A stretch of 64,000 nucleotides of DNA from Squalus acanthias (lineage: Eukaryota), in contig CM059431.1 of NCBI GenBank assembly GCA_030390025.1, positions 131,132,001 through 131,196,000 on the forward strand. Reading direction: 5' to 3'. The notes below the pieces were generated by a model. That model saw only the letters and a program-made list of their open reading frames with translations. It was not told where the DNA came from and did no database searches. The stretch's first letter is position 1. Each line of letters begins with the position of its first letter. Both the position numbers and the translations under genes were made by a program. Below, piece after piece: positions 1 to 59,828 of the stretch.

Positions 1-135
1 CATTTTTCTTGGGCGCTTTCCTTCCCCAATACCTCCTCCAACCCATCACCACGCCTCTGTCTTCCTACTCTCCTGCTGTCATCCCAGGCTTGAATCAGCT
101 CTTGGCATTCTCAAAAAGGGCCCATTGAAACACCA

Positions 136-950
136 TTGGTGTTTCCTATGAGCAGCTACTCCAACTGCCCCATCCTAATCTCTCAGCAATCTTCACACTC
201 AGGGCCTAACCTCCTCACCTTTCTCCTCATTCCACTCACCCCACCCATCATTGCCCCCTTAGAGTCTGACATTGGATCAATAATCACCATCTCGCTCCAT
301 GCTTCCCCCCACCCCGCACCCCACTCCCAGATTGTCCGTTCACTCGCAAACGAGACCCTTGCCATCCAGGAACTTAATGTGGATGATTGCATTGACATTC
401 TGTCTTTGACTGAAACTTGGCTCACAAGTGGTGATACTTTGCCCCTTACTAAAGTCTCCCCACCTGGCTATACTTTCCAACAGATGCCATGCCCAAATCA
501 CTGTGGTGGCAATATGGCCCTTATCACCAAGTCACACCTTGGCCTCTCCCCCTTCTCCTATGGCACATTTTCCTCCTTTGCACATTACCTTGTTCCACCT
601 CTCTTACCGCTCCTTTAAAATCTATCATCCCTGAAGCCCCACTCGGAGTTTCTCCTTGAGATATCTCCATATTTTAATTCCTCAGCCTCTGCACTGAACA
701 GTTCCTCATCCTTAGTGATTTTAATCTCCATCTCAGCTCCACTTGCCCTCTCTCCTCTGAATTCACTGCCCTCCTGTCCTTCTTAAACCTTTCCCTCCAT
801 ATAAACTCTCCTACCCAAATTCACCGCCAACTCTTCAACCTTCCCATCTCCTATTGCCTCTCTACTATCATGATCACTGACAAGGCCAAGTTTGACTACT
901 TCCTTGAATCCCTCACCACCCACATCCCACGTCCTTCTGTGATCGCCACT
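136..950 (+). mobile_element. L2-clade LINE fragment, APE endonuclease region of ORF2 (degenerate)
   Basis: ORF 136-618 has VRSL..., ILSLTETWL, PPGY.F, GG.ALITKSHLGLSP motifs and closely matches the L2 at 55312-55980. Confidence 0.85.
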
Positions 951-1032
951 GAGCCACACAAGGTGGTATTAAGACAGATGACCAAAAGCTTGGTCAAAGA
1001 GGTAGGTTTTAAGGAGCATCTTAAAGAAGAAA
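951..1032 (-). mobile_element. L2 LINE 3'-region fragment
   Basis: GACCAAAAGCTTGGTCAAAGAGGTAGGTTTTAAGGAGCATCTTAAAG is identical to the L2 3' region at ~53270-53316. Confidence 0.8.
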
Positions 1033-1120
1033 AATGAGTAGTCGCACAACACCAGGTTATAGTCCAACAGCTTTATTTGAAATCACAAGCTTTCGGAGCG
1101 CTGCTCCTTCGTCAGGTGAA
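1030..1120 (-). mobile_element. Penelope-like element terminal fragment with minimal hammerhead ribozyme (1083-1119)
   Basis: Minus strand reads UCAC-CUGACGA-A-GGAGC-AGC-GCUCC-GAAAGCUU-GUGA, followed by the same sequence as the copies at 8.4, 23.2 and 39.1 kb. Confidence 0.75.
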
Positions 1121-1610
1121 GATCGCATCAAATGTTTCCAGGTCATGAACAACATGGGTCGGTCTATGGTAATGTATTCTGTGTACATTCACGTGTGATG
1201 TTTTACTGTATTGGATTCTTTTTCAGCCCTTTTAGTTTCAAATTGAGTTTTAGCTCCAGTATTAGTGTGTCAGGCTGATTCAGATAGGACCAAGCTCAAC
1301 CTCCAAACTAATCCCAGTTTGGTCATTCCTGGATGTCAGTATATTGTTGACGTGATTTTAGAAGAATGAAATCTCATGTCATTTTGGATAAAAGCTGAAA
1401 ACTAATTTGTTTTAAAGTCTTTACAAGGATTTCTGTCACTATTGGAGCCTTGAGTAAAAATGGATCTTGTACGATGGTCTGAAACTTTAGTATTCTACAT
1501 GATTTATGTGTCAGCCTTTGACTCCTTTCCATGGATTCTTGATAGTTCCAAATGAAGACACAGATCACTTGAATATCTAACATGGCAATAGCTTTGTTAA
1601 GCAAAGCTTA

Positions 1611-2229
1611 AGGGTGAAAACAGGTGCTAAATGGGTGCTTGAGCTAATAAGAAACGCCTGTTTGAAAGTGTGGATTTAGCATGCAATTTTCAGGCTAATT
1701 GATGATTATCATGATTTAAATGCGCCTGCAGACGCTGAAACCAACACCTCTCGAGGGCATCGCAGGAGAACATCTGAACATCCCTCTTCAGAATCTCAGC
1801 AGCCATCCACCTCACCTGCTGCTGCCACTGGGGTTGCATTTCTTAGAAGCACTAGATTAGGCAAGAGCACTTATAGATTTCCACTAAGGATAAGCACCAG
1901 GGTGAATAGTTTAATAGTTTTAAGTGCTGTTGGTTGTGTCATGTTTTCATTGTTTGTTTTTGCTCGAGATAAAGTGTGATTATGGTAATTGGGTAGTGGT
2001 GGAATTGCTGATCTTTTTTATTGTGTTCTTCATGGGGAAGGGGTTGAAAGGATTGAGTGCAGATGGTGGACTTCTTGGTGGATCCTAAGTCGTGGAAGGT
2101 ACATCATGCGGCAACAGTGCTCCAAAATCTGATGGTGGAGGACGTCTTTCAAAAGTGTTCTTCAATTAGATGGCGGCGAGCATCCCTCCCAGGTGTGGGC
2201 CGTCTACCTGGAACCCTCTGGTGCTAATC

Positions 2230-2263
<34 letters not shown>

Positions 2264-2765
2264 ATCCTCTTGTGGCTCCTGAGCTTGACCGTCTGGCACA
2301 ATTGCTGGTGGTCACGACTGGTCTCTCATGATCACCAGATTGTGTCGCATGCAGCAAATCACGAATCACAGCTGAGTACTGCAGGGCACATCTGACCAGT
2401 CAAGACATCTAAACCTCTGCTTGAGGACCCCAATGATCTGCTCAATGATATTCCTGGTGGCTGACTGGCTCTCATTGTATGAGTGCTCAGCTGGTGTCTG
2501 TGGGGTTTCTCAGGGGAGTCATGGGCCATGGCATCAGAGGATATCCCTTGTCACCTAGTAGCCAGCCATGCACATTGCGTTGGGGCTCAAAGCTCTGTGG
2601 GATGGATGATTGTCTCATTATAAACACATCATGGCAGCTCCCTGTATAGAAGACATTCACCTGCATGATGCGCTGCCAGTGGTCACAGGCAAACTGAGGG
2701 GCACACTTAGCCACATGTGTGCAGTCAATGGCTCCCTGGACCATGGGGAATCCCACAATCCTGTT
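1611..2765 (-). mobile_element. PIF/Harbinger transposon, left part: transposase C-terminal half (-) and Myb/SANT gene C-terminus (+, ~1750-1890); degenerate
   Basis: GFPMVQGAIDCTH, GSCHD, GWLLGDKGYP, IIEQIIGVLKQRF and acidic tail on the minus strand. Left boundary approximate. Confidence 0.8.
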
Positions 2766-3013
2766 TAATCCAGTGGTGGAGGGAGTGAATGTTTAAGGTG
2801 GTGGATGGGGTGCCAATCAAGCGGGCTGCTTTGTGCAGGATGGTGTCGAGCTTCTTGAGTGTTGTTGGAGCTGCAGTCATTCAGGCAAGTGGAGAGTATT
2901 CCATCACACTCCTGACTTGTGCCTTGTAGATGGTGGAAAGGTTTTGGGGAGTCAGGAGGTGAGACACTCGCCACAGAATACCTAGCCTCTGACCTGCTCT
3001 TGTAGCCACAGTA
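2766..3013 (-). mobile_element. Distal ORF portion of the tRNA-headed LINE (continues from 9188-11713); 3' end deleted
   Basis: TVATRAGQRLGIL...IYKAQVRSVMEYSPLA continues the sequence at ~9190 (GVTIDQKLNWT..IN) and overlaps the LINE 3' end seen at 17165-17605. Confidence 0.8.
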
Positions 3014-3813
3014 ACCAAATTACAGAAATGAGTAAAAAAGCATAAAATAATAATCATGGGGGATTTCAACTACCCCGATATTAATTGGACAGAAGAGGTA
3101 GGTAAAGGGGATATGGGAATGGAGTTCCTACAATGTCTACAGGACTCCTTTCTAACCCAATAGGTAAAAAGCCCAACAAGGGAGGATTTGCTATTGGATC
3201 TAGTTATGGGGAATGAGCTAGAGCAGATAAGAGAAGTAAAAGTAAGGGAACATATCGGCAATAGTGACCATAATATAATACACGATAGAGAAGGACATAA
3301 GAATGACAAAAACCAAGTTAATAGATTGGAGTAAAGCTGATTTTGAGGGGCTGAGAATAGAACTTGGAAAGATAAAATGGGCAACAATATTGGCAAACAA
3401 CGATGTAGAATGACAATGGGAAACTTTTAAAACGGTGTTCAACAGAGTGCAGGAAAAATATATTCCGCTAAAAGGAAAGAACAAACTAAACACTAATAAG
3501 ACTCCATGGATGAATAAAGACATAGGGCTGGATTTTGTCTTGGGGTCGGGTTGGGGTCGTGTAATCCGCATTTCGTGTTTCCCCCCCGACTCCAGATTAA
3601 TGTGGATGCCTGATGCAATTTTCACTTAATTGGGCAATTGAGTTGGAGCATGTGGGAACCCATGAACTAATTAGTGTTTTCAGTCTGAAAGCCGCCTCTG
3701 ATGATGTCATCATTGCTGACTGGCTAGTCTCAGAGACTGTTGGTGAGAGAGGACCTGCCTGGCATTTGATGTGGGTGGACCTGGATGCAAAAATGGGGGG
3801 TGGTGGTGTAGAG

Positions 3814-3814
<1 letters not shown>

Positions 3815-3845
<31 letters not shown>
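3815..3845. repeat. (GA)n microsatellite
   Basis: Run of GA dinucleotides visible directly. Confidence 0.95.
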
Positions 3846-3850
<5 letters not shown>

Positions 3851-4278
3851 TTTTTTTGCCAAGCAAGTCCTCCCAGGCAGTCTCTGAAGACATTCAATGC
3901 AGCAGCATCAGAGGCAATGTTCAGACCTAATACTACTACTACCTTCATCACATCTCCGTTGTAATAGTGGACCTGCAGCCGATAGTCAGCTATCCACTTG
4001 TGCTCCCGCCAGGTTTCACTGGAGTGTTTCACACCAGGCGTGCTTCACGTCATAAGAGGGTTAAACTAGCTATAGCATTTCAAAATGGCATTACAGAGCC
4101 AAGTTAGAGCTTGTTAAGGGCTTTAATGGCCTCTCCCGCCTCTTGAAGGCGGGACGAAGTCGGGAACTCCACGACTGATTATGTCAAAATTGCGTGGAGG
4201 CGGGATGGAGTCGGGATGGGGTCGGAAACCACGACCCCGCAAATTTAACCCCCCACACGCCTCCAAACCCGACTCCAT

Positions 4279-6922
4279 CAGGAAATAGTTGGGGCATGTA
4301 ATAAGGGAACAGCTATAATTATGGGGGATTTTAACTATCATATTAACTGGACAAATCAAATTGGGCAGGGCAGCCTTGAGGAAGAGTTTATTGAGTGTCT
4401 TAGGGACGGATTTCTTGAGCAGTATGTAACTGATCCTACAAGGGGGCAAGCAACCTTGGACCTGGTACTGTGTAATGAGTCTGGATTAATTAATAATGTT
4501 CTAGTTAAGGATCCCCTTGGAATGAGTGACCATAACATGGTTGAATTCCATATCCAATTAGAGGGTGAGAAGGTTGGTTCTCAAACAAGCATACTGAGCT
4601 TGAATAAAGGAGACTATGATGGCATGAGAGCAGAATTGATTAAAGTGGACTGGGAAAATAGATTAAAGGGTAAGACGGTACATGAGCAGTGGTGTTCATT
4701 CAAGGAGTTATTTTACAACTTTCAAAATAAATATATTCCACTGAGGAAAAAAGGGTGTAAAAGAAATGACAGCCATCCATGGCTAAGTAAAGAAATTAAA
4801 GAAAGTATCCAACTAAAAACAAGGACATATAAGGTAGCCAAAGTTAGTGGGAGGATAGAGGATTGGGAAGTCTTCAAAAGACAACAAAAAGTAACTAAAG
4901 GATTGATTAAGAAAGGGAAAATAGACTATGAAAATAAATTAGCAAAAAATATAAAAACAGATAGCAAGAGTTTCTATAGTTATATAAAAAGAAAAAGGGT
5001 GGTTAAGGCAAACGTAGGTCCCTTAGAGGATGAGACCGGGAAATTAATGGTGGGAAACATGGAGATGGCAAAAATGCTGAACAAATATTTTGTTTCAGTC
5101 TTTACGGTAGAGGACACTAAGAATATCCCAACACTGGACAAACAGGGGGCTCTAGTGGGGGAGGAGCTAAATACGATTAAAATCACTAAGGAATTGGTAC
5201 TCAGTAAAATAATGGGACTCAAGGCGGATAAATCCCCTGGACCTGATGGCTTACATCCTAGGGTCTTGAGGGAAGTGGCAGTAGGAATTGTGGATGCTTT
5301 GGTAATAATTTTCCAAAACTCCCTGAACTCAGCAAAGGTCCTGGCAGATTGGAAAACTGCTAATGTAACACCCTTATTTAAAAAGGGTTGTAGGCAGAAG
5401 GCTGGAAATTATAGACCAGTTAGCCTAACATCTGTGGTGGGTAAAATTTTGGAGTCTATTATTAAGGAGACAGTAACAGAACATTTAGATAAACATAATT
5501 TAATAGGACAAAGTCAGCATGGCTTTATGAAGGGGAAGTCATGTCTGACAAATTTGCTCAAGTTCTTTGAGGACATAACGTACAGGGTGGATAAAGGGGA
5601 ACCAGTGGATGTGGTGTATTTAGACTTCCAGAAGGCATTCTACAAGGTGCCACATAAAAGATTATTACTCAAGATAAAAAATCACTGGATTGGGGGTAAT
5701 ATTCTGGCATGGGTGGAGGATTGGTTATCTAACAGGAAGCAGAGAGTTGGGATAAATGGTTCATTCTCGGACTGGCAACCAGTAGCCAGTGGTGTTCCGC
5801 AGGGGTCGGTGCTGGGTCCCCAACTCTTTACAATCTATATTAATGATTTGGAGGAGGGGACCGAGTGTAACATATCAAAGTTTGCAGATGATACAAAGAT
5901 GGAAGGGAAAGTAGAGAGAGAGGAGGACATAAAAAACCTACAAGGGGATATAGACAGGCTGGGTGAGTGGGCAGAGATTTGGCAGATGCAATACAATATT
6001 GGAAAATGTGAGGTTATGCACTTTGGCAGGAAAAATCAGAGAGCAAGTTATTATCTTAATGGCGAGAAACTGGAAAGTACTGCAGTACAAAGGGATCTGG
6101 GGGTCTTGGTGCAAGAAAATCAAAAAGTTAGTATGCAGGTGCAGCAGGTGATCAAGAAAGCCAATGGAATGTTGGCTTTTATTGCTAGGGGGATAGAATA
6201 TAAAAACAGGGAGGTATTGCTGCAGTTGTATAGGGTATTGGTGAGACCGCACCTGGAGTACTGCATACAGTTTTGGTGTCCATACTTAAGAAAAGACATA
6301 CTTGCTCTTGAGGCAGTACAAAGAAGGTTCACTCGGTTAATTCCGGGGATGAGGGGGTGGACATACGAGGAGAGGTTGAGTAGATTGGGACTCTACTCAT
6401 TGGAGTTCAGAAGAATGAGAGGCGATCTTATTGAAACATATAAGATTGTGAAGGGGCTTGATCGGGTGGACGCGGTGAGGATGTTTCCAATGATGGGTGA
6501 AACTAGAACTAGGGGGCATAATCTTAGAATAAGGGGCTGCTCTTTCAAAACTGAGATGAGGAGAAACTTTTTCACTCAGAGGGTAGTGGGTCTGTGGAAT
6601 TTGCTACCCCAGGAAGCTGTGGAAGCTACTTCATTAAATAAATTTAAAACAGAAATAGACCGTTTCCTAGAAGTAAAGGGAATCAGGGGTTACGGGGAGC
6701 GGGCTGGAAATTGGACATGAGTTTGAGTTCGGATCGGTCAAGGCCCTGTGGGTGGCGGAGCGGGCCCAGGGGCCGAGTGGCCTGGTCCTGCTCCTACTTC
6801 TTGTGTTCTTTAGAGTTGAGGTTGGATCAGATCAGCCATGATCTCATTGAATGGTGGAGCAGGCTCGAGGGGCCGATTGGTCTACTCCTGCTCCTATTTC
6901 TTATGTTCTTATGTTCTTATGT
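4279..6922 (+). mobile_element. CR1 LINE 'B', young and 5'-truncated
   Basis: Uninterrupted ORF2 portion, 3' UTR, (TTATGTTC)n tail; TCCAT at 4274-4278 and 6922-6926 is the likely TSD. Confidence 0.95.
4321..6720 (+). CDS. CR1 ORF2 (C-terminal endonuclease part plus reverse transcriptase), 799 aa, N-terminally truncated
   Basis: GDFN, LDLVL, SDH endonuclease motifs; KSPGPDG, YRPVSLTS, QHGF, GVPQGSVLGP, FADD RT motifs; KAFD changed to KAFY. Confidence 0.9.
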   Translation: MGDFNYHINWTNQIGQGSLEEEFIECLRDGFLEQYVTDPTRGQATLDLVLCNESGLINNVLVKDPLGMSDHNMVEFHIQLEGEKVGSQTSILSLNKGDYDGMRAELIKVDWENRLKGKTVHEQWCSFKELFYNFQNKYIPLRKKGCKRNDSHPWLSKEIKESIQLKTRTYKVAKVSGRIEDWEVFKRQQKVTKGLIKKGKIDYENKLAKNIKTDSKSFYSYIKRKRVVKANVGPLEDETGKLMVGNMEMAKMLNKYFVSVFTVEDTKNIPTLDKQGALVGEELNTIKITKELVLSKIMGLKADKSPGPDGLHPRVLREVAVGIVDALVIIFQNSLNSAKVLADWKTANVTPLFKKGCRQKAGNYRPVSLTSVVGKILESIIKETVTEHLDKHNLIGQSQHGFMKGKSCLTNLLKFFEDITYRVDKGEPVDVVYLDFQKAFYKVPHKRLLLKIKNHWIGGNILAWVEDWLSNRKQRVGINGSFSDWQPVASGVPQGSVLGPQLFTIYINDLEEGTECNISKFADDTKMEGKVEREEDIKNLQGDIDRLGEWAEIWQMQYNIGKCEVMHFGRKNQRASYYLNGEKLESTAVQRDLGVLVQENQKVSMQVQQVIKKANGMLAFIARGIEYKNREVLLQLYRVLVRPHLEYCIQFWCPYLRKDILALEAVQRRFTRLIPGMRGWTYEERLSRLGLYSLEFRRMRGDLIETYKIVKGLDRVDAVRMFPMMGETRTRGHNLRIRGCSFKTEMRRNFFTQRVVGLWNLLPQEAVEATSLNKFKTEIDRFLEVKGIRGYGERAGNWT

Positions 6923-52782: not shown

Positions 52783-55700
52783 TGTAATCCAAACATCTGT
52801 CTGGATACTTTGATTTGTGACACTCGAGTTACAAAATACAAACTGAGTCGACAGCAATAAGATCCATACGATGGTGTTTAATCATGACTTTACCCGTTAA
52901 CAATTACAATGTTTTACTTTCTAAAGCCTAATTGCATTACTTGGATTACGTGTCAGGGAATATACTCATTAGGCTATTGACAATCGCGCTGGGGTTGATC
53001 AGACCACAACCGATCACCATCAGAAAGCTGATCAGGCCTCTGCTCCACGAGACTTGAGCCCAACTGCTGGAATTCCTCTCCTTCTGCTCCTTCCTGTCGA
53101 CCGTAGGGGCTAGCCTCTGGCCGTGCTATTCTTGCTGTCTTATATTGTCCGAATACACAACAACAACTTGTATTTATATAGCGCCTTTAACGAAGTAAAA
53201 CGTCTGCACAGGAGTATTTTAAGACAACAAATTTGACACCGATCCACATAAGGATAAATTAGGGCAGGTGACCAAAAGCTTGGTCAAAGAGGTAGGTTTT
53301 AAGGAGCATCTTAAAGGAGGAAAGAGAGGTAGCGAGGCGGAGAGGTTTAGGCAGGGAATTCCAGAGCTTAGCATCTAGGCAACAGAAGGCCCGGCCACCA
53401 ATGGTTGAGCAATTATAATCAGGGATGCTCATGAAGGCAGAATTAGAGGAATGCAGATATCTCGGGGTTGTGGGGCTGAAGGAGATTACAGAAATAGGGA
53501 GGGGCAAGGCCATGGGAGATTTGCTTAACCGGGAGCCAATGTAGGTCAGCAAGCACAGGGGTGATGGGCGAACGGAACTTGATGCGAGTTAGGACATGGG
53601 CAGCCGAGTTTTGGATGACCTCAAGTTTACGTAGGGTGGAATGTGGGAGGCCAGCCAGGAGTGCATTGGAATAGTCAAGTCTAGAGGTGACAAGGCATGG
53701 ATGAGGGTTTGAGCAGCAGATGAGCTGAGGCAAGGGCGGAGATGGGCGATGTTACGGAGGTGGAAGTAGGCAGTCTTTGTTATGCTGCGGATATGTGGTC
53801 GGAAGCTCATTTCAGGGTCAAATATGACACCAAGGTTGCGAACAGCGTGGTTCAGCCTCAGACAGATGTTAGGGAGAGGGATGGAGTCAGTGGCTAGGGA
53901 ACGAAGTTTGTGGCGGGGACCGAAAACAATGGCTTCGGTCTTCCCAATATTTAATTGAGAAAATTTTTGCTCATCCAGAACTGGATGAAGGGCAAGCAGT
54001 CTGACAATTTAGACACCGTGGGGGGGGGGGGGTTGAGAGAAGAGGTAGTGAAGTAGAGCTGGGTGTCGTCAGCGTACATGTGGAAACTGACGCTGTGTTT
54101 TCGGATGATGTCACCAAGGGGCAACATGTAGATGAGAAATAGGAGGGGGCCAAGGATAGATCCTTGGGGGACACCAGAGGTAACGATGTGGGAGCGGGAA
54201 GAGAAGCTGTTGCAGGTGATTCTCTAGTTACGATTAGATAGATAAGAATGGAACCAGGCGAGTGCAGTCCCACCCAGCTGGATGATGGTGGAGAGGCGTT
54301 GGAGAAGGATGGAGTGGTCAACCATGTCAAAGGCTGCAGACAAGTCAAGAAGGATGAGGAGGGATAGTTTACCTTTGTCACAGTCACAAAGGATGTCATT
54401 TGTGACTTTGATGAGAGCTGTTTCGGTATTGTGACAAGGGCAGAAACCTGATTGGAGAGATTCAAACATGGAATTGCGGGAAAGATGGACACGGATTTGG
54501 GAGGCGACAACACGTTCAAGGACTTTGGAGAGGAAAGGGAGGGTGGAGATGGGGAGGTAGTTTGCAAGGACAGAGGGATCAAGGTTTGTTTTTTTGAGGG
54601 GGGTGATGAGAGCAGATTTGAGGGAGAGGGGGACAGTACTTGAGGAGAGAGAACCGTTAACAATATCAGCTAACATGGGAGCCAGAAAAGGAAGTTGGGT
54701 GGTCAGCAGTTTGGTGGGAATAGGGTCGAGGGAACAGGAGGTGAGTCTCATAGACAAGATAAGTGCAGAGAGATCATAAGGGGAGATCGGAGAGAAACTG
54801 GAGAAAGATGTGAGTTCAGAGCTAGGGCAGGGAGGAACCTTAGAGGAAGTTTGGTCCAGTGGGCTAGGGGAAGGAAGGGAAGCGGCAGAGGCAGCTGAAC
54901 GGATGGTCTCATACTTAGAGACAAAGAAGTCCATGAGCTCCTCACACTTGTTATCGGAGGTGAGGGTGGAGGAGACGGGAGAAGGGTTTAAGAAGACGGT
55001 TAGCAGTAGAGAATAGGAGCCGGGATTTAACTTTGCATTCCAGAATGATTCTGGAATAGTGAGCAATTTAAGCAGACGGGAGCAGGGCCTGATAATGCTT
55101 TATGTGATCCAGCCAGATCTGGCGGTGAATGGCTAAACCAGTTGTCCGCCATATCCGTGCGAGTCTGCATCCCTTGGACTTAAGGGAGCGATGATGAGAG
55201 CCGTACCAGGGGGAACGGCCAGGGTGAGAGAGGGTAATTGTTTTAGTAGGGACTAGGGCATCAAAGGTGATGGTGAGGGTGTGGTTGAACAGATCGGTAG
55301 CTGCAGAAATGTCATGGTGAATGGAGGGCCAGAGGCTGAACAGTTGGGATTTCGTAAGTGCAGTTGTAAGAGAGTTGAGAGAGAGTTTTTTCCAGGGGCA
55401 GACACAGCAGGAAGTAGGGTTGTGGGGGGGTGGGTGGAAGGGGGATGTGGGTGGAGAGCGATACGAGGAAATGGTCAGAGATGGCCTTATCTGCAATTGA
55501 CACAATGGGAGTAGCGAGGCCACGAGAGATGGCAAGATCGAGGGGCTGGCCGTGAATATGGGTTGGGGAGTTTACATGGAGGGAGAGATTAAGGGAGGAT
55601 AGGAGGCTAGTGAACTCAGAGGAGAGAGAGCATGATGAATTGAGATGGAGTTTGAAATCACCGAGGATGAGAAGTCGTTCGGTGCAGAGGCTGAGGGAGG

Positions 55701-56391
55701 AGAACAGTGAAGATATCTCAGTGATAAAATTTTTATGGTACTTGGGTGGGCGGTAGAGAACAAGGATTTTAAATGAGAGGCGAGAGGGGTGGAATAAGGT
55801 GAGATGCTCAAAGGAGGAGAAACCGCCGGGGGAATAGGGGGACAGACCAAGGTGTGATTTGGTGATGAGAGCCACACCGCCACCACGGCAGTCTGAGCGG
55901 GGCAAGCGGTGGAAGGTATAGCCAGGTGGGGAGGCTTTGTTTAAGGGTAAGGTGTCATCACACCTCAGCTAAGTTTCCGTGTTACACCTCCTTGCCCGAT
56001 ACCAGAAGTTTCCTGTGGTTTTGCACTTTGATAGCTCCTTATCGAAAACTGTTGCTGACATGTCCGCAGCTCCTTTGATATGAGGTTTCGTTTACTAATG
56101 CATTTCCTTGCTTCTAATGTCTGTGAGTTTTTCTTTAAAACTGCAAGTCGTTATCTTGTTAGCCAGACATGCCTTCCAAGGTTGAATATACATTCCACTC
56201 AATCCCAGATTTTGTAAGCTGCGATTCTGCAGCTGGGATCTTCAAGTTTATGTTGAAAAGTTTCTCCGAGGGCCTTTTCTTTAATTGCCCACAGCAGGCT
56301 TGGTCAATTTCTGAGTTCAGTTTTAACGAGCTTTAAGCTCCTATTATACTGTCCATCAAAGTCGTTCACTTTGATGTAGATCGATTCTGCA
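52783..56391 (-). repeat. 3' LTR of the provirus (~780 bp once the L2 is removed)
   Basis: Follows the PPT; TATA-like AATATAAG at ~53146-53139; ATTAAA at ~52882-52877; ends TTACA. Confidence 0.85.
53159..55982 (-). mobile_element. L2 LINE (5'-truncated, degenerate ORF2) inserted in the LTR
   Basis: TET.L, LGDF, ISDH, LDPIPT, QSGF, LLDLSAAFD.VDH, GVPQGSILGP, YADD, SRLDYSNALL; GCGCTATATAAATACAAG(TTG)n tail; TACAC TSD. Confidence 0.93.
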
Positions 56392-56457
56392 TCTTCCCCC
56401 TCAAACGCCTGGGGAATCTTGTTGATTCAGGTGCTTCATACGTGAGGCCCACAACCG

Positions 56458-58829
56458 TCAGTGAATGATTATCACTAACCATAATCGTTCCAAAAATTGG
56501 GAACGACACCCTCCCAAATCTGACCACGTAACCATACATATACAGGGCAATAAAGCCCCCTTCCGATGAGTTCTATTACAACAGTTTCTGTTCTTCTTCT
56601 TTAACATTTTGAGCTTGCGTTTAACTTTTCGCCTTTTACAACGATTACAAGATTCAATCAGCAAATACACAACAATGATTAATTGTATAACTACTAAGGC
56701 ATGAGATATTGTCCTGATCCAGGGGTGGATTTCAACATTCATACCCACACTCCACCATGAATTAGTAGTTTTTATGTTGTTAATCTTTTGCCGAGTTTCC
56801 CGATTGTGTTGTTGTAACTGATAATACTGTTTCCTGGATCGTTCAATTTCCGTTCTTAGTTTGGTTTGGTGCTCCGGTAAAGGTGGGATGTCATAACCAA
56901 ATCTAGTAACATACTTATGTAGTTCAGACTTAATTCCTTCTATTACGTTCATTGTGTTGGTATACGTTCACTAACTCTTGCATCCCTATCCTGACTGGTT
57001 TTGTCGGGTTAAAACAAAAACTTGGCCGTTTAATCTGACATGTGGTGTTAGTCCCATATTTGTAGTGTGTCTCACCGGTGGTTACACAATACTCACCCTT
57101 CCCTCAATACGCTATCGTGGTGTGGATAAACTCCACTCCGAATACTTCCATCGTACAATTAATTGTTCCCTTAGTTTTATTTTACCCACATAGTGAATGG
57201 TCATGTTGTTGGATCTCGTAGGGACATACAATCATTTGTCCATGCTTCTTACATCCCTGTAGCTCTGCTCCCACCAGGGTCCCGCTAACATTCACCAGGT
57301 AAGTGTGGTGTTGATCGTATTGCATGTGCATGTCCCCTCGCATAACTCCAATATTTTCTAATCAATAGACCCCGATGGGTTTTCCTCCCTTAGGAATTAC
57401 GGGAAAGTATAATACCAATCCCATCATAGTCAAATTTGATCCTGTTTTACACTCATGTCTCACCGGATAAACTTGTGTTAAACCCCTTAATTCGCACGTG
57501 GTGATATTACTGTGTTACTTAACCAAAGCATTCTTCAAACAATCTCATGTTATCTCCTGCGTGTTCTACCAACCAGGATCCATACATTACACACACATCA
57601 CTTTGTGCCGCTTCATCAGAAGTGTTCTTATCCTCCTTAATCAATAAATTTACTGTTTTTGCATGTTTTTCCAATTGTGTGACTACATCTTGTAGATGTA
57701 TCGTCATAATTTGGTCTTCTCCTAGTTCCTTATCCTGATTAGTATTTGTTTCCTGCAGAATTTTCTTAAGTTGTGCCTTAGTATCCTTAATCTCTTTATC
57801 CAAAGATGCTAAATCTAAACTATTTACAAGTGAAGTTCCCGTATTAAAAACAGTTGCTGCATCATTTATCAAATTATGCTTCCTTCTCCTACCACGAGTT
57901 TCAGTTTCATTCCTCTCCGAACTTTGGTAAATGTGATCCTCATGATGATATCCATAACTGTTACCGTTCCTAGCCCAAAAATCGTCCACAATTTGTTGTA
58001 ACAACCCCCTAAAGAGGGTGGTTTTTGGTTTACACCAATTTGGCAACCCCATGTCAGTTAAATTCAACATTACCGGTACTACCTCGTGATGGACATCATG
58101 GTACAGAATCATATGAGTAGGGATAATAACTAAACCATTCTTAGGTCCGTCGGTGTGGGTGGAGCAAACAATCTGGGTTTCCTGTTGCTTTTCCTGTGTC
58201 TTATTCAAAGGAGATTTGGAGCGAAACTTCAACTCTACCGCATGTATCACTGAATCCCCATTACCGCATCCTCGCACATGGTAGGTATCTACACACCCCA
58301 CTCTACCATAACATCCAGTCCCACTTATGTACCACGGATAAGGATCACTGACATTAGTCATGCCGCATTGCCCTGTATATGTTCCGACATTGTGTTGTGC
58401 ACAGCCATGCACACACCCATAAATTCCCTCATCCATTTCCCACAAATTTTCCCAGCATAACTTGGCATCCTTGCCAGAGCTTCCACTTCTCGACTGGGTC
58501 GGTTTCTTCCACTTTTCATTCTCCCAGGGGTTTCCCACCTGATAGTACCTCCCAGCCTTATTCTCCTCAGCCTTAACAAACCATATTACTGGTGGTCTAG
58601 TTCCACTACCTCCTTCACATTTTACACATATCTTCTTCCCCTCTTGGACCTCGTAAGTGTTGACCCATACCGTCCCCGTGCAATTTGTCTCACACAGGAC
58701 GAGAGTGGCATTGCCCCTAGTTCTGTGACAATGTACTTTCATTTGGAAGATGTCACTTTTAGAGGCTCCTCCGGTGACGACCACCGTTACCAGCCCGATC
58801 GTCACCACCCACGACTGCCATACCCTCAT
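56458..58829 (-). pseudogene. env: Envelope glycoprotein: signal peptide, V-set Ig-like domain, furin-like site, fusion peptide/heptad, Cys-rich region, TM; first 436 codons open, distal part broken
   Basis: ATG at 58829 (MRVWQSWVVTIGLVTVVVTGGAS); RGRRRKH-NLINDAATVFNTGTSLVNSLDLASLDKEI; TM ISHALVVIQLIIVVYLLI then a basic tail; lies directly before PPT and 3' LTR. Confidence 0.85.
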
Positions 58830-58834
58830 CGTGC

Positions 58835-58862
58835 CTGCAAAACAAAACAAAAGATTGGGCAA
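58835..58862 (-). promoter_or_regulatory. env splice acceptor
   Basis: TCTTTTGTTTTGTTTTGCAG|GCACGATG: polypyrimidine tract and CAG, 5 nt before the env ATG. Confidence 0.75.
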
Positions 58863-59828
58863 TTTGATGTAGATCGATTCTACACTGGCACCCAATAATC
58901 TGCAGCACTCTATTTTCCAGCGCAGACAGTGTTTGGGTGTCAGCTTGTCCCCCGCCTGTGCACTCCTGCCCCCTCCTGTTGTGAGCCACCTTGGCCTGCA
59001 AGAGAAAGGAAAATGTGTGAGTGAGTGTGGAGCAATGTGTTTGGGTGAAGTGCCTGCCATAGTTGAATAGCTGTCATTGTGTGCAAGGTGTGAGATGTGG
59101 GTGTAAGTATTGGTAGGTAGAGATCGTTGGTGGGTGAGCGCTGGAGGTGTGGTGCTTTGGCCAGTGTGTGCAGACTATGGTACAGATGGTGGTATGTAGC
59201 ATTTGTTGAGGCATTGACTCACCCTGACCACCCGAGTGAGGTCATTAACTTTCTTCCTGCACTGTGTGTGGGTCCTGGGGACCACAGTGCTGCCTGAGAC
59301 ATGCTGGGCTACCTCCCTCCACATGGCACGGAAGACTTGCGGCGATGGTCTCCTGCCACTTGTTGGGTAGAGCACCGCCCTCCATCTCTCCACAGCGAAC
59401 ACCAACTCCTCCAATGCTTGGTCCTAAAATCTGCGGGCTCTCTCCCTGGGGAGTAGATCTGACATCATGACACCTGCTTGAGTCGTTCGGCACCTTGGGT
59501 TTGGCCTAGCTCCTGCTTGCTAACACAGGTTCACAGTCAGCAATGCTGAGAATGAGGTTCTGCAGCCTGAATGAACCTCCCTTTTAAGAACTGGAAAGAG
59601 CCTGTGGCAATGATGACTTGCAATTAGACTGCACCTGATATTGGTTAGTGCTTCGAGTGTAGCGCCACTGAGCTAGGCCATTAGTGCTTGATTTAGAGCT
59701 CCAATCCTTTCTTTTAGCGATAATAGTTAATTTTGCATGCAGCGTGATTCATTAGCGCCCGGCGCCAAATCTCAAACTTTTCTGAAGTTACCGCCCATTC
59801 CTGGGCTTTAATGAATTTCTCCCCCCTT

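What the first reader, a model, noticed from the sequence alone, without database searches (positions are those of the whole stretch)
58224..58658. Retroviral-type Env with a V-set immunoglobulin domain and a ~55-residue cysteine-rich CDR3-like loop
Seen: VQEGKKICVKC (B strand), VIWF 12 residues later, and GKDAKLCWENLWEMDEGIYGC (E-F strands, D-x-G-x-Y-x-C), with the two core cysteines 68 residues apart. About 55 residues with five more cysteines follow before a G-strand-like IHAVELKF. Known: this is the V-set Ig signature; long disulphide-tied F-G loops occur in shark VNAR and bovine ultralong CDR H3; classical retroviral SU domains lack this signature. Inference: a captured host Ig domain used for receptor binding or immune mimicry, with the loop as a variable binding knob. 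This part lies within 436 still-open codons.
Basis: partly seen in the sequence, partly recalled or inferred. Interest (0 to 1): 0.85.

Follow-up and report, generated by a model that had tools for sequence, protein, structure and literature searches.

The report
Antibody-like domain on a fossil retroviral envelope
A broken envelope gene of an endogenous retrovirus carries a real antibody-variable-type domain with a long cysteine-rich loop, set in front of a fusion machine shaped like the F protein of measles-type viruses, an envelope design that I did not find described in print.

Summary
It lies on the minus strand, P0001 residues 135-279. Present are Cys148, Trp160 twelve residues on, D-x-G-x-Y-x-C ending at Cys216 (68 residues from Cys148), a 55-residue stretch with five cysteines, then the strand IHAVELKF.

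The domain is a real immunoglobulin (Ig) domain of the V type:
- Single-sequence Pfam scores are below threshold.
- A 20-sequence family profile hits solved Ig domains at E=2e-6.
- An AlphaFold model (core pLDDT 62-83) matches CD8, T-cell-receptor and antibody V domains (Z 9.7). The match runs across the long stretch, which places it in the F-G, CDR3-like loop.

It is not a lineage-specific capture. The domain occurs across the whole Env family, in at least 101 matches in this genome and in shark, skate and frog proteins. No host donor was found.

The rest of Env is not classical. A paralogue's core folds like paramyxovirus/pneumovirus F (E=1e-11).

The loop ranges from 8 to 71 residues between lineages. 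In one clade it differs while the framework stays 79% identical. Among close copies of the window's own clade it is not more variable than the framework.

The window copy is dead: two frameshifts and in-frame stops in the fusion subunit, and no gag or pol nearby.

Most likely the Ig domain was the receptor-binding head of an F-type retroviral Env.

The parts
56458..58829 (-). Whole env remnant, from the native start Met78 to the stop after the cytoplasmic tail. The first 436 codons are open and the rest is broken.
   Evidence: ORFs. tblastn with three paralogous Envs covers 58649..56647 in three pieces in different frames. DNA is 84-95% identical to the four closest copies (at three places in the genome) over 56014-58860.
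58767..58829 (-). Signal-peptide-like N-terminus (P0001 residues 78-98).
   Evidence: Sequence. The same start is present in close copy L002. Cleavage was not tested.
58674..58766 (-). N-terminal segment with three cysteines (residues 99-129). It lacks about 20 residues that close copies L004 and L002 have.
   Evidence: Alignment A1. Modelled with pLDDT below 50.
58413..58673 (-). Ig domain, strands A' to F (residues 130-216): Cys145, Cys148, Trp160, Cys202, D-x-G-x-Y-x-C ending at Cys216.
   Evidence: Pfam V-set E=0.071, 13.8 bits, below the cut-off of 26. Family profile against PDB E=2.1e-6. AlphaFold core pLDDT 62-83. Foldseek and VIA-align give V-type Ig domains.
58248..58412 (-). F-G loop insertion, 55 residues with five cysteines and one N-x-S/T site (residues 217-271).
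   Evidence: Position. The structural matches run over model residues 55-205, so they include the G strand beyond this stretch. Length is 8-71 residues in relatives. pLDDT is 34-46, so its own shape is unknown.
58224..58247 (-). G strand IHAVELKF (residues 272-279).
   Evidence: Modelled as strand 195-204 of the SU model, block pLDDT 60-67. It aligns with the G strands of the short-loop homologues P0018 and P0021.
57897..58223 (-). Linker, then the conserved F2-like segment (residues 299-365, window 57966-58166), then a variable stretch before the cleavage site.
   Evidence: This is the most conserved part of SU in A1 and A3. The matching part of paralogue L022 has pLDDT 74-85 and belongs to the F-like fold.
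57879..57896 (-). Furin-type cleavage motif RGRRRK (residues 389-394).
   Evidence: Sequence. R-x-K/R-R is conserved at this column in the family. Cleavage was not tested.
57522..57878 (-). Start of the fusion (TM) subunit, still in frame (residues 395-513); the stop codon is at 57519-57521.
   Evidence: It is 40-90% identical to paralogues. It corresponds to the long helix of the F-like model.
56458..57518 (-). Broken remainder of the fusion subunit. The frame changes just after 57519, three stops interrupt the next frame, and the frame changes again near 56930-56967. The membrane anchor is at 56656-56718 and a basic tail follows.
   Evidence: Three-frame translation. tblastn pieces fall in different frames. 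The anchor and tail are in P0002.
58830..59174 (-). Open codons upstream of Met78 that are not env. Homology to close copies ends at 58860, and 58965-59666 resembles another repeat.
   Evidence: blastn. So the ATG at 59060 is not the native start.

Best explanation
The stretch encodes the N-terminal head of the surface subunit of an endogenous retroviral Env.

The Env is built in this order: signal peptide; a short cysteine-bearing segment; one Ig domain of the V type; a linker; an F2-like segment; a furin-type site; and a large F1-like fusion subunit with a membrane anchor. It is in effect a paramyxovirus-F-type fusion protein with an Ig domain added at the N-terminus.

The most likely working model is that the Ig domain was the receptor-binding module. 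Its F-G (CDR3-equivalent) loop is enlarged by a disulphide-tied insertion and would form the contact surface. Receptor binding would release the F-like core to refold and fuse membranes. Lineages changed receptor use or escaped host counter-measures by resizing or replacing that insertion.

Shown here: the Ig fold, the position of the insertion, the F-like core (in a paralogue), the cleavage motif, the between-lineage variation of the loop, and the broken state of the window copy.

Inferred: receptor binding by the Ig domain, exposure and disulphide pattern of the insertion, and cleavage.

The window copy itself has no fusion function today.
For: Ig domain:
- The 20-sequence family profile hits solved Ig domains, with an scFv light-chain V domain at E=2.1e-6, DIP-alpha at 2.6e-6, then DSCAM, CD8 alpha and CRTAM. 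The full-length profile hits DIP-alpha at 2.3e-5, a T-cell receptor mu chain at 3.2e-5 and shark VNAR at 5e-3.
- AlphaFold on the window's SU (24 sequences) gives a core of pLDDT 62-83 with strands in Ig order.
- Foldseek finds at least 500 PDB chains at E<=0.001. The rows shown are antibody or T-cell-receptor V domains, or chains of complexes that hold a Fab. TM is 0.55-0.61 on V domains of about 107 aa.
- VIA-align over 48,161 chains: bovine CD8 alpha Z 9.7 (rmsd 2.9 over 96 residues), TCR delta V 9.5, catfish NITR11 9.4, shark UrIg2 V 9.3; 146 chains reach Z>=8. The model range 55-205 runs across the insertion.
- A public homologue carries the UniRef name 'Ig-like domain-containing protein'.

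Family-wide feature: the Cys-Trp-Cys pattern is nearly invariant in 20 to 24 sequences, including shark, skate and frog proteins.

F-type core:
- The model of the paralogue's core (mean pLDDT 60; 234 of 526 residues at 70 or more) matches hPIV3 F at E=1.3e-11, then NDV, Langya and RSV F. Every row shown is a paramyxo- or pneumovirus F.
- In BFVD it matches baculovirus F, glycoproteins of insect-associated negative-strand RNA viruses, paramyxovirus F0, walleye epsilonretrovirus Env and feline foamy virus Env.

Loop as a changeable module:
- Length is 8-71 residues with 0-6 cysteines over the 24 rows. Three rows (L002, L017, L036) are cut by ORF ends and should be disregarded.
- In the L039 clade the framework is 0.79 identical but the insertion only 0.42, with two unrelated-looking versions.

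Retroviral context: pol and gag lie upstream of paralogues.
Against: - No single sequence reaches a Pfam Ig threshold. The best scores are V-set 13.8 bits against a cut-off of 26 and Ig_3 15.8 bits against 30.
- The SU model is poor overall (mean pLDDT 48). The insertion is modelled at pLDDT 34-46, so nothing shows that it is an exposed knob.
- In the window's own clade and in the 35%-identity clade the insertion is as conserved as the framework (0.91 against 0.92; 0.59 against 0.60). It is therefore not hypervariable in the antibody sense.
- The F-like fold was modelled on a paralogue about 35% identical to the window protein, not on the window copy, and from 31 sequences.
- No sequence match to Pfam Fusion_gly PF00523 was found.
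- The stretch after the cleavage site is only weakly hydrophobic for a fusion peptide (read).
- No receptor is known and no binding was tested.
Confidence: 0.62

Rival explanations
1. Recent capture, the first reader's reading: this retrovirus lineage picked up a host Ig V exon, and the domain is modular and lineage-specific.
For: The domain has the cellular IgSF hallmarks: Cys, Trp, and D-x-G-x-Y-x-C. Virus-borne Ig domains are usually of host origin (general knowledge). The domain sits at the N-terminus as a separable module in front of a complete F-like core.
Against: The domain is present in all subfamilies aligned, at 20-45% identity to the window, and in proteins of sharks, a skate and a frog. 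No host Ig protein came up at E<=0.001 among 19 hits in 1.84 billion representatives, or among 5 hits of the profile search; all hits were Env homologues. The best structural matches are only 9-19% identical.
Confidence: 0.1
2. The Ig domain is not the receptor binder. It serves as an immune-evasion or mimicry module, for example by engaging a host IgSF receptor or shielding the fusion core, and another part of SU binds the receptor.
For: Ig V domains commonly pair with other IgSF molecules, and the nearest folds include CD8, CRTAM, BTLA and CD79b. SU has another segment of unknown fold before the Ig domain.
Against: Between the signal peptide and the F2-like segment the Ig domain is the only confidently folded module. 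F-type proteins that lack a separate attachment protein need a binding module, and no second env-like gene lies between pol and env in the paralogues examined. Nothing here tests mimicry.
Confidence: 0.13
3. The window copy is a co-opted host gene: the 436 open codons are kept because a secreted SU/Ig protein is useful, for example to block a receptor against related viruses.
For: The SU half is open for 436 codons while the fusion half is broken. dN/dS against three close copies is 0.41-0.47 over 120-150 codons. SU-only restriction genes are known in mammals and birds (recalled).
Against: dN/dS below 1 is expected from selection on the virus before integration, and the counts are small (20-41 differences). 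Homology to close copies ends about 28 nt upstream of the start codon, and the sequence beyond is an unrelated repeat, so no native upstream sequence is retained. The window copy has an in-frame deletion of about 20 residues next to the Ig domain. The open frame runs on into the fusion subunit and ends at a frameshift rather than at the SU boundary.
Confidence: 0.06
4. Chance resemblance: a cysteine-rich viral glycoprotein segment that merely imitates the V-set motif.
For: All single-sequence Pfam hits are below threshold. The structure model has low overall confidence. The PDB is dominated by antibodies, which inflates antibody hits.
Against: The profile E-values are 2e-6 against 177,635 sequences, with the three hallmark residues aligned. 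The match is independent of Foldseek and of antibody redundancy: Z 9.7 in a 40%-identity representative set, covering 96 of 114 residues of CD8 alpha. The short-loop homologues P0018 and P0021 show a textbook Ig pattern.
Confidence: 0.04

Closest known systems
Lokiretrovirus Env (Wang & Han, Mol Biol Evol 2020/21, PMC7947760; passages read)
   Same: It is a retroviral env whose product resembles the F fusion glycoproteins of Paramyxoviridae and Pneumoviridae, with a signal peptide, an R-x-K-R site, a coiled coil and a membrane anchor. Pol has a dual RNase H. The hosts are lower vertebrates.
   Different: Lokiretrovirus Env was linked to Pfam PF00523 by sequence (E=2.2e-7 in the paper). Here no Env tested hits PF00523, and the link is by predicted fold only. 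The paper's Env model (sp, fp, cc, tm) shows no Ig domain, and its text holds neither 'immunoglobulin', 'Ig-like' nor 'cartilaginous'. The RT phylogeny was not done here.
Foamy virus Env (Sci Adv 2024, PMC11468914; passages read)
   Same: It is a retroviral Env whose shaft has the domains I, II and III of paramyxo/pneumovirus F, with a separate receptor-binding domain made from a continuous stretch of the N-terminal part of SU. Feline foamy virus Env is a BFVD match of the paralogue model (E=9e-5). PFV integrase is the best solved integrase match.
   Different: No match to a foamy Env Pfam family appeared. There is no long leader peptide. The foamy receptor-binding domain is, as I recall, a fold of its own and not an Ig domain. 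Here the head is a canonical IgSF domain.
Paramyxovirus/pneumovirus F with its separate attachment protein (HN, H or G)
   Same: The predicted fold of the fusion core is the same, and cleavage activation by a furin-type site comes before the fusion subunit.
   Different: In those viruses receptor binding sits on a second protein. Here a binding-type domain is fused to the N-terminus of the F2-like segment. The Ig-like domain II inside F is a different domain, which lies in the core.
Gammaretroviral receptor-binding domain (Friend MLV RBD; recalled, not checked here)
   Same: It is an N-terminal SU domain with an Ig-like beta sandwich, whose long variable loops (VRA, VRB) set receptor choice and differ between virus subgroups.
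   Different: That domain lacks the IgSF sequence hallmarks and belongs to a gamma-type Env. Here the hallmarks are present, the variable element is a single F-G insertion, and the fusion subunit is F-type.
Shark VNAR and bovine ultralong CDR H3 antibodies
   Same: Each is a V-type domain whose CDR3-equivalent loop is greatly lengthened and tied by extra cysteines. VNARs are among the sequence-profile hits (E=5e-3 to 5e-2). Like VNAR, the model shows no clear C'' strand.
   Different: Those loops are diversified somatically in each animal. Here the differences are germline or viral, between lineages, and are small among close copies. Nothing indicates common descent with VNAR in particular.

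Membership tests
Immunoglobulin superfamily, V-set domain (Pfam PF07686) | B-strand Cys and F-strand Cys about 65-75 residues apart, with a conserved Trp 10-15 residues after the first | tested here: met
   Cys148, Trp160 (+12) and Cys216 (+68). They align to the matching residues of a light-chain V domain and are nearly invariant in the family.
Immunoglobulin superfamily, V-set domain (Pfam PF07686) | D-x-G-x-Y-x-C motif at the E-F turn and F strand | tested here: met
   DEGIYGC in the window. Variants with E/D-x-G-I/V-Y-x-C occur in paralogues, and weaker forms in P0018 and P0021.
Immunoglobulin superfamily, V-set domain (Pfam PF07686) | Score above Pfam's gathering threshold | tested here: not met
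   V-set scores 13.8 bits against a cut-off of 26 (E=0.071), and Ig_3 scores 12.2-15.8 bits against 30. Only the family profile reaches significance, against PDB sequences.
Immunoglobulin superfamily, V-set domain (Pfam PF07686) | Two-sheet beta sandwich with Ig strand order | tested here: met
   AlphaFold core pLDDT 62-83. Foldseek TM is 0.55-0.61 on V domains. VIA-align gives Z up to 9.7 with rmsd 2.9 over 96 residues. This rests on a model, not on an experiment.
Immunoglobulin superfamily, V-set domain (Pfam PF07686) | C' and C'' strands that set the V-set apart from the I-set | tested here: inconclusive
   The model has a C' strand (92-98) but no clear C'' strand. Both V-set and I-set domains score alike. 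The Cys-Cys spacing of 68 residues favours the V type.
Paramyxo/pneumovirus-type F fusion glycoprotein (Pfam PF00523) | Sequence match to the Fusion_gly profile | tested here: not met
   No hit at E<=0.1 to 10 for the 14 different Env sequences scanned. There were 0 matches in the whole genome, although that search also found nothing in its control genomes.
Paramyxo/pneumovirus-type F fusion glycoprotein (Pfam PF00523) | F fold (domains I-III with a long central helix) | tested here: met
   The model of paralogue L022 matches hPIV3 F at E=1.3e-11 (TM 0.53 on the target), then NDV, Langya and RSV F. All rows shown are F proteins. This was tested on a paralogue, not on the broken window copy.
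Paramyxo/pneumovirus-type F fusion glycoprotein (Pfam PF00523) | Multibasic cleavage site directly before the fusion subunit | tested here: met
   RGRRRK at residues 389-394, with R-x-K/R-R conserved in the family. Only the motif was seen; cleavage was not tested.
Lokiretroviruses | Dual RNase H (tether plus RNase H) in pol | tested here: met
   RT_RNaseH_2 at E=1e-23 and RNase_H at 9.4e-18 in the pol upstream of paralogue L024. Canonical retroviruses share this feature.
Lokiretroviruses | RT groups with lokiretroviruses, outside the canonical retroviruses | not testable with these tools
   No reference RT sequences could be fetched. The solved-structure matches are ambiguous: Ty3 2.4e-73, MLV-type RT 1e-63, foamy PR-RT 9e-62.
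Foamy virus Env | Sequence match to the foamy Env family and a long N-terminal leader peptide | tested here: not met
   No such Pfam hit. The native N-terminus starts directly with a hydrophobic signal-like stretch.
Gamma-type retroviral Env (TLV_coat; C-x6-CC in TM) | Pfam match and the C-x6-CC motif in the fusion subunit | tested here: not met
   No Pfam hit. No C-x6-CC is seen in the fusion-subunit translations.

The most novel reading that the evidence does not exclude
Cartilaginous fishes, and at least one frog, carry an undescribed lineage of retroviruses. In it an F-type fusion protein is aimed by an antibody-like V domain. Receptor switching happens by cassette-like replacement or expansion of a disulphide-stapled CDR3-like loop, making a virus-borne counterpart of VNAR or ultralong-CDR3 binders. 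The boldest form of this reading is that the V domain was exchanged between virus and host near the origin of jawed-vertebrate IgSF receptors.
Probability: 0.2. Interest if true: 0.8.

Novelty: new variant of a known kind. Interest (0 to 1): 0.58.

Why it matters
F-type envelopes in retroviruses are a recent finding, reported for lokiretroviruses in 2020 and for foamy virus structures in 2024. How such envelopes find their receptors is largely open.

An N-terminal IgSF V-type head would give a concrete and testable answer for one lineage. It would also show a third way of equipping an F-type fusion machine with a binding function. The other two are a separate attachment protein in paramyxoviruses and a dedicated non-Ig domain in foamy viruses.

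The finding adds cartilaginous fishes to the hosts of F-type retroviral envelopes.

It also offers natural examples of a V domain that tolerates F-G loop insertions of 8 to 71 residues, which is of interest for understanding long-CDR3 binders.

The window copy itself is a dead fossil. Its value lies in the family it reveals.

Tried and rejected
- **Word-indexed search, single sequence:** no hit at E<=0.001.
- **Word-indexed search with the full-length alignment:** returned only P0018 and one close relative.
- **Word-indexed search with the Ig-region alignment, longer proteins:** returned 5 Env homologues and no host protein.
- **ESM Atlas on P0018:** one unnamed chordate cluster at 0.82, below the level the tool calls a lead, and no structure search.
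- **Pfam PF00523 over the whole genome:** 0 matches. The control genomes gave nothing either, and a stricter first look was used, so this says little.
- **PDB sequence search with the single protein:** only noise.
- **PDB sequence search with the full-length profile:** no F protein among the 60 rows shown.
- **Expression:** no RNA holder is listed for the stretch.
- **Four runs guessed to be RNA, laid on 56400-59200:** contigs of 32-60 nt at high depth over 58938-59125, which is the unrelated repeat upstream of env. There is almost nothing on env itself. This says nothing either way about expression.
- **Earlier findings of this scan:** nothing on record.
- **Second batch of 20 paralogous regions:** Three short regions were fetched instead, so the alignments hold 20-31 sequences rather than the 60 or more I wanted.
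- **Paper on cartilaginous-fish endogenous foamy viruses (J Virol 2023):** not held, so I could not check whether it describes this Env. This is the main gap in the novelty claim.
- **Rejected: reading the ATG at 59060 as the start.** Homology to close copies ends at 58860.
- **Rejected: reading the roughly 100-nt gaps between match pieces as introns.** Alignment A1 shows a length-variable stretch before the cleavage site instead.
Full report
**1. What is there**

The finding's coordinates translate to stops on the plus strand. On the minus strand they lie inside an open frame, window 57519..59060, of 513 aa from the first ATG and 551 codons stop to stop.

- Cys148 in VQEGKKICVKC.
- Trp160 in VIWF, twelve residues later.
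- D-E-G-I-Y-G-C ending at Cys216, 68 residues after Cys148.
- A 55-residue stretch (217-271) with five cysteines.
- IHAVELKF at 272-279, which is window 58224-58247.

The native start is Met78, followed by a hydrophobic signal-like stretch. DNA homology to the closest copies ends about 28 nt upstream of it, and the sequence beyond belongs to another repeat.

**2. State of the window copy**

- After residue 513 the env reading continues in another frame.
- That frame is interrupted by three stops, and the reading then shifts frame again before the membrane anchor (56656-56718) and a basic tail.
- Neither gag nor pol is found by tblastn anywhere in the 64-kb window or in the next 10 kb.
- Compared with close copies, the window copy also lacks about 20 residues just before the Ig domain.

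It is a dead, solitary env remnant.

**3. It is a retroviral env of a large family**

The protein finds 101 match rows in the window's own 3.7-Gb genome, at 36-90% identity. This is a lower bound, because a stricter first look was used and only 84 of 27,065 candidates were scored.

In the loci I fetched, longer paralogues lie just downstream of a pol with the following Pfam matches:
- RVT_1, E=5e-29.
- RT_RNaseH_2, E=1e-23.
- RNase_H, E=9e-18.
- Integrase_H2C2, E=1e-14.
- rve, E=3e-15.

They also lie downstream of a gag-like frame with a zinc knuckle (E=0.002).

Outside this genome, an exhaustive HMMER search of 1.84 billion representatives gave 19 hits at E<=0.001. The eight whose source records I looked up are unnamed or 'uncharacterized' proteins of sharks and a skate, plus one of a frog. 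One shark protein is named 'Ig-like domain-containing protein' by UniRef.

**4. Is the Ig domain real?**

Single sequences do not pass Pfam thresholds:
- V-set, 13.8 bits against a cut-off of 26, for the window.
- Ig_3, 14.8-15.8 bits against 30, for three paralogues.
- Nothing for the remaining Env sequences scanned.

The family as a whole does pass.
- A profile of 20 Ig-region sequences (A2) hits solved Ig domains, from E=2.1e-6 for an scFv light-chain V domain, through DIP-alpha, DSCAM, CD8 alpha and CRTAM.
- In that alignment Cys148, Trp160 and Cys216 pair with the three hallmark residues.
- The 15-sequence full-length profile (A3) gives Ig domains again for nearly all of its best 60 rows, including a T-cell receptor mu chain at 3.2e-5 and shark VNARs at 5e-3 to 5e-2.

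AlphaFold2 on the window's SU with 24 sequences is poor overall (mean pLDDT 48). The stretch corresponding to P0001 residues 127-219 has block means of 62-83, apart from a dip to 42-47 in the C'-D loop, with strands in Ig order. A further strand at the position of IHAVELKF has pLDDT 60-67.

Structure searches with that model:
- Foldseek returns at least 500 PDB chains at E<=0.001. The rows shown are antibody or T-cell-receptor V domains, or chains of Fab complexes.
- A search independent of Foldseek, over 48,161 representative chains, gives bovine CD8 alpha at Z 9.7 (rmsd 2.9 over 96 of 114 residues).
- It also gives TCR delta V, a catfish NITR V domain, a shark UrIg2 V domain, CRTAM, catshark CD8 alpha and some I-set domains.
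- 146 chains reach Z>=8.

These alignments span model residues 55-205. They pick up the G strand after skipping the long stretch, so the stretch is an insertion in the F-G loop, the CDR3 position.

The domain is V-type by its Cys-Cys spacing and best matches. The model shows no clear C'' strand, so V-set against I-set is not settled.

**5. The loop**

In the short-loop homologues (shark P0018, frog P0021, paralogue L013) the F-G connection is 11-16 residues with no cysteine or one. In the two most divergent proteins (P0007, P0008) it is 8 residues. The other groups are as follows.

| Group | Loop length (residues) | Cysteines |
|---|---|---|
| 35%-identity clade | 44 | 2, as a rule |
| Window's clade | 55 | 5 |
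| L039/L012 clade | 53-71 | 2-4 |

These figures come from one search, which covered 24 rows. Three rows are cut by ORF ends and should be disregarded.

Within the L039 clade the framework is 0.79 identical but the insertion only 0.42, with two versions that look unrelated. This is the best sign that the insertion is a replaceable module.

Against the word 'hypervariable':
- In the window's clade the insertion is as conserved as the framework (0.91 against 0.92).
- The same holds in the 35% clade (0.59 against 0.60).
- dN is the same in both parts for the closest pair (0.040 against 0.044).

**6. The rest of Env**

The part after the Ig domain was modelled on paralogue L022 (526 aa, 31 sequences). 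Mean pLDDT is 60, and 234 residues are at 70 or more.

- Foldseek against the PDB gives hPIV3 F at E=1.3e-11 (TM 0.53 on the target), then NDV, Langya, RSV, PIV5, Nipah, Hendra, measles and mumps F. Every row shown is a paramyxo- or pneumovirus F.
- Against predicted viral structures the best matches are glycoproteins of insect-associated negative-strand RNA viruses, baculovirus F (Ld130) and paramyxovirus F0.
- That search also gives retroviral Envs: walleye epidermal hyperplasia virus (3.6e-7), feline foamy virus (9e-5) and walleye dermal sarcoma virus (2.7e-4).

No sequence match to Pfam PF00523 was found.

The architecture is therefore: signal peptide, N-terminal segment, Ig V-type domain, linker, F2-like segment, furin-type site, F1-like subunit, anchor.

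**7. How it most likely worked**

F-type fusion proteins need something to tell them that a target membrane is at hand. Paramyxoviruses use a second protein. Foamy viruses use a receptor-binding domain within SU (PMC11468914, passages read).

Here the only well-folded extra module is the Ig domain. Its one strongly lineage-variable element is the F-G insertion. I therefore take the Ig domain as the receptor-binding head and the insertion as its specificity element (confidence about 0.6).

The fold, the positions and the variation are shown. Binding, exposure, disulphide pattern and cleavage are inferred.

**8. Origin of the domain**

The IgSF hallmarks point to an ultimately cellular origin. 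The domain is nevertheless shared by all subfamilies and by shark, skate and frog homologues, at 15-45% identity to the window's copy over the Ig region. No host protein appears in either large search, and structural neighbours are 9-19% identical. A recent capture by this element is unlikely (about 0.1).

**9. Comparison with what is known, and novelty**

Lokiretrovirus Envs were reported as F-like by sequence, in lampreys, bony fishes, amphibians and reptiles (PMC7947760). The texts of that paper and of its successor PMC9040795 contain neither 'immunoglobulin' nor 'cartilaginous'. Two later texts that mention lokiretroviruses likewise hold no 'immunoglobulin' or 'Ig-like'.

Word searches for combinations of endogenous retrovirus, shark, env, immunoglobulin, Ig-like domain, paramyxovirus F and cartilaginous-fish foamy virus turned up no description of an Ig head on an F-type retroviral Env.

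Limits of that claim:
- The library lacks most subscription journals.
- One directly relevant paper (J Virol 2023 on cartilaginous-fish endogenous foamy viruses) is not held.
- UniRef already flags an Ig-like domain automatically in one homologue.

I rate this a new variant of a known kind, namely an F-type retroviral Env, with moderate to good interest. The lineage of the virus (loki-like, foamy-like or other) stays open. Solved-structure matches of pol are ambiguous: Ty3 at 2.4e-73, MLV-type RT at 1e-63, foamy PR-RT at 9e-62, and PFV integrase at 6e-28.

Noticed in passing
window 53971-55905 (minus strand): Overlapping open frames of 104-280 aa directly downstream of the env remnant read like the reverse transcriptase and endonuclease of a non-LTR (LINE-type) retrotransposon. 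This is judged by eye and was not scanned against Pfam.
   Followed up: no
window 58938-59125: In four runs guessed to be RNA, many contigs of 32-60 nt at summed depths of 69-700 cover both strands of this stretch. It lies in a repeat just upstream of env that is also present, at 73% identity, in L038 2578-3256. Env itself is almost bare. This could reflect small RNAs against a repeat, or contaminating DNA.
   Followed up: partly
P0004 (public sawshark protein, 673 aa): A protein named 'Niban 1-like' starts with about 250 residues homologous to this Env (F2-like segment and first helix, E=9e-31) and then continues as unrelated sequence. It is either an exonised env fragment or a gene-model artefact.
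   Followed up: no
L021 (G000:C100:62000-71999), minus strand 2-5086: A 1695-codon open frame begins with an env fragment and runs on into a long tandem repeat that stays open in several frames on both strands.
   Followed up: no
BFVD matches of model mb3c140b745bc: The Env proteins of the exogenous fish epsilonretroviruses WEHV-1 and WDSV are among the structural matches of the F-like core (E=3.6e-7 and 2.7e-4). F-type fusion cores may therefore be more widespread in fish retroviruses than the loki and foamy cases.
   Followed up: no
window 58674-58766, compared with L004 and L002: The window copy has an in-frame gap of about 20 residues, between the N-A-T-L-V and C-E-T-N-C motifs, relative to its closest copies.
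   Followed up: partly
Alignment A1, columns about 520-560 (before the cleavage site): The stretch between the F2-like segment and the furin-type site varies in length by about 25-30 residues between clades. This explains the split match pieces about 100 nt apart, so they are not introns.
   Followed up: partly
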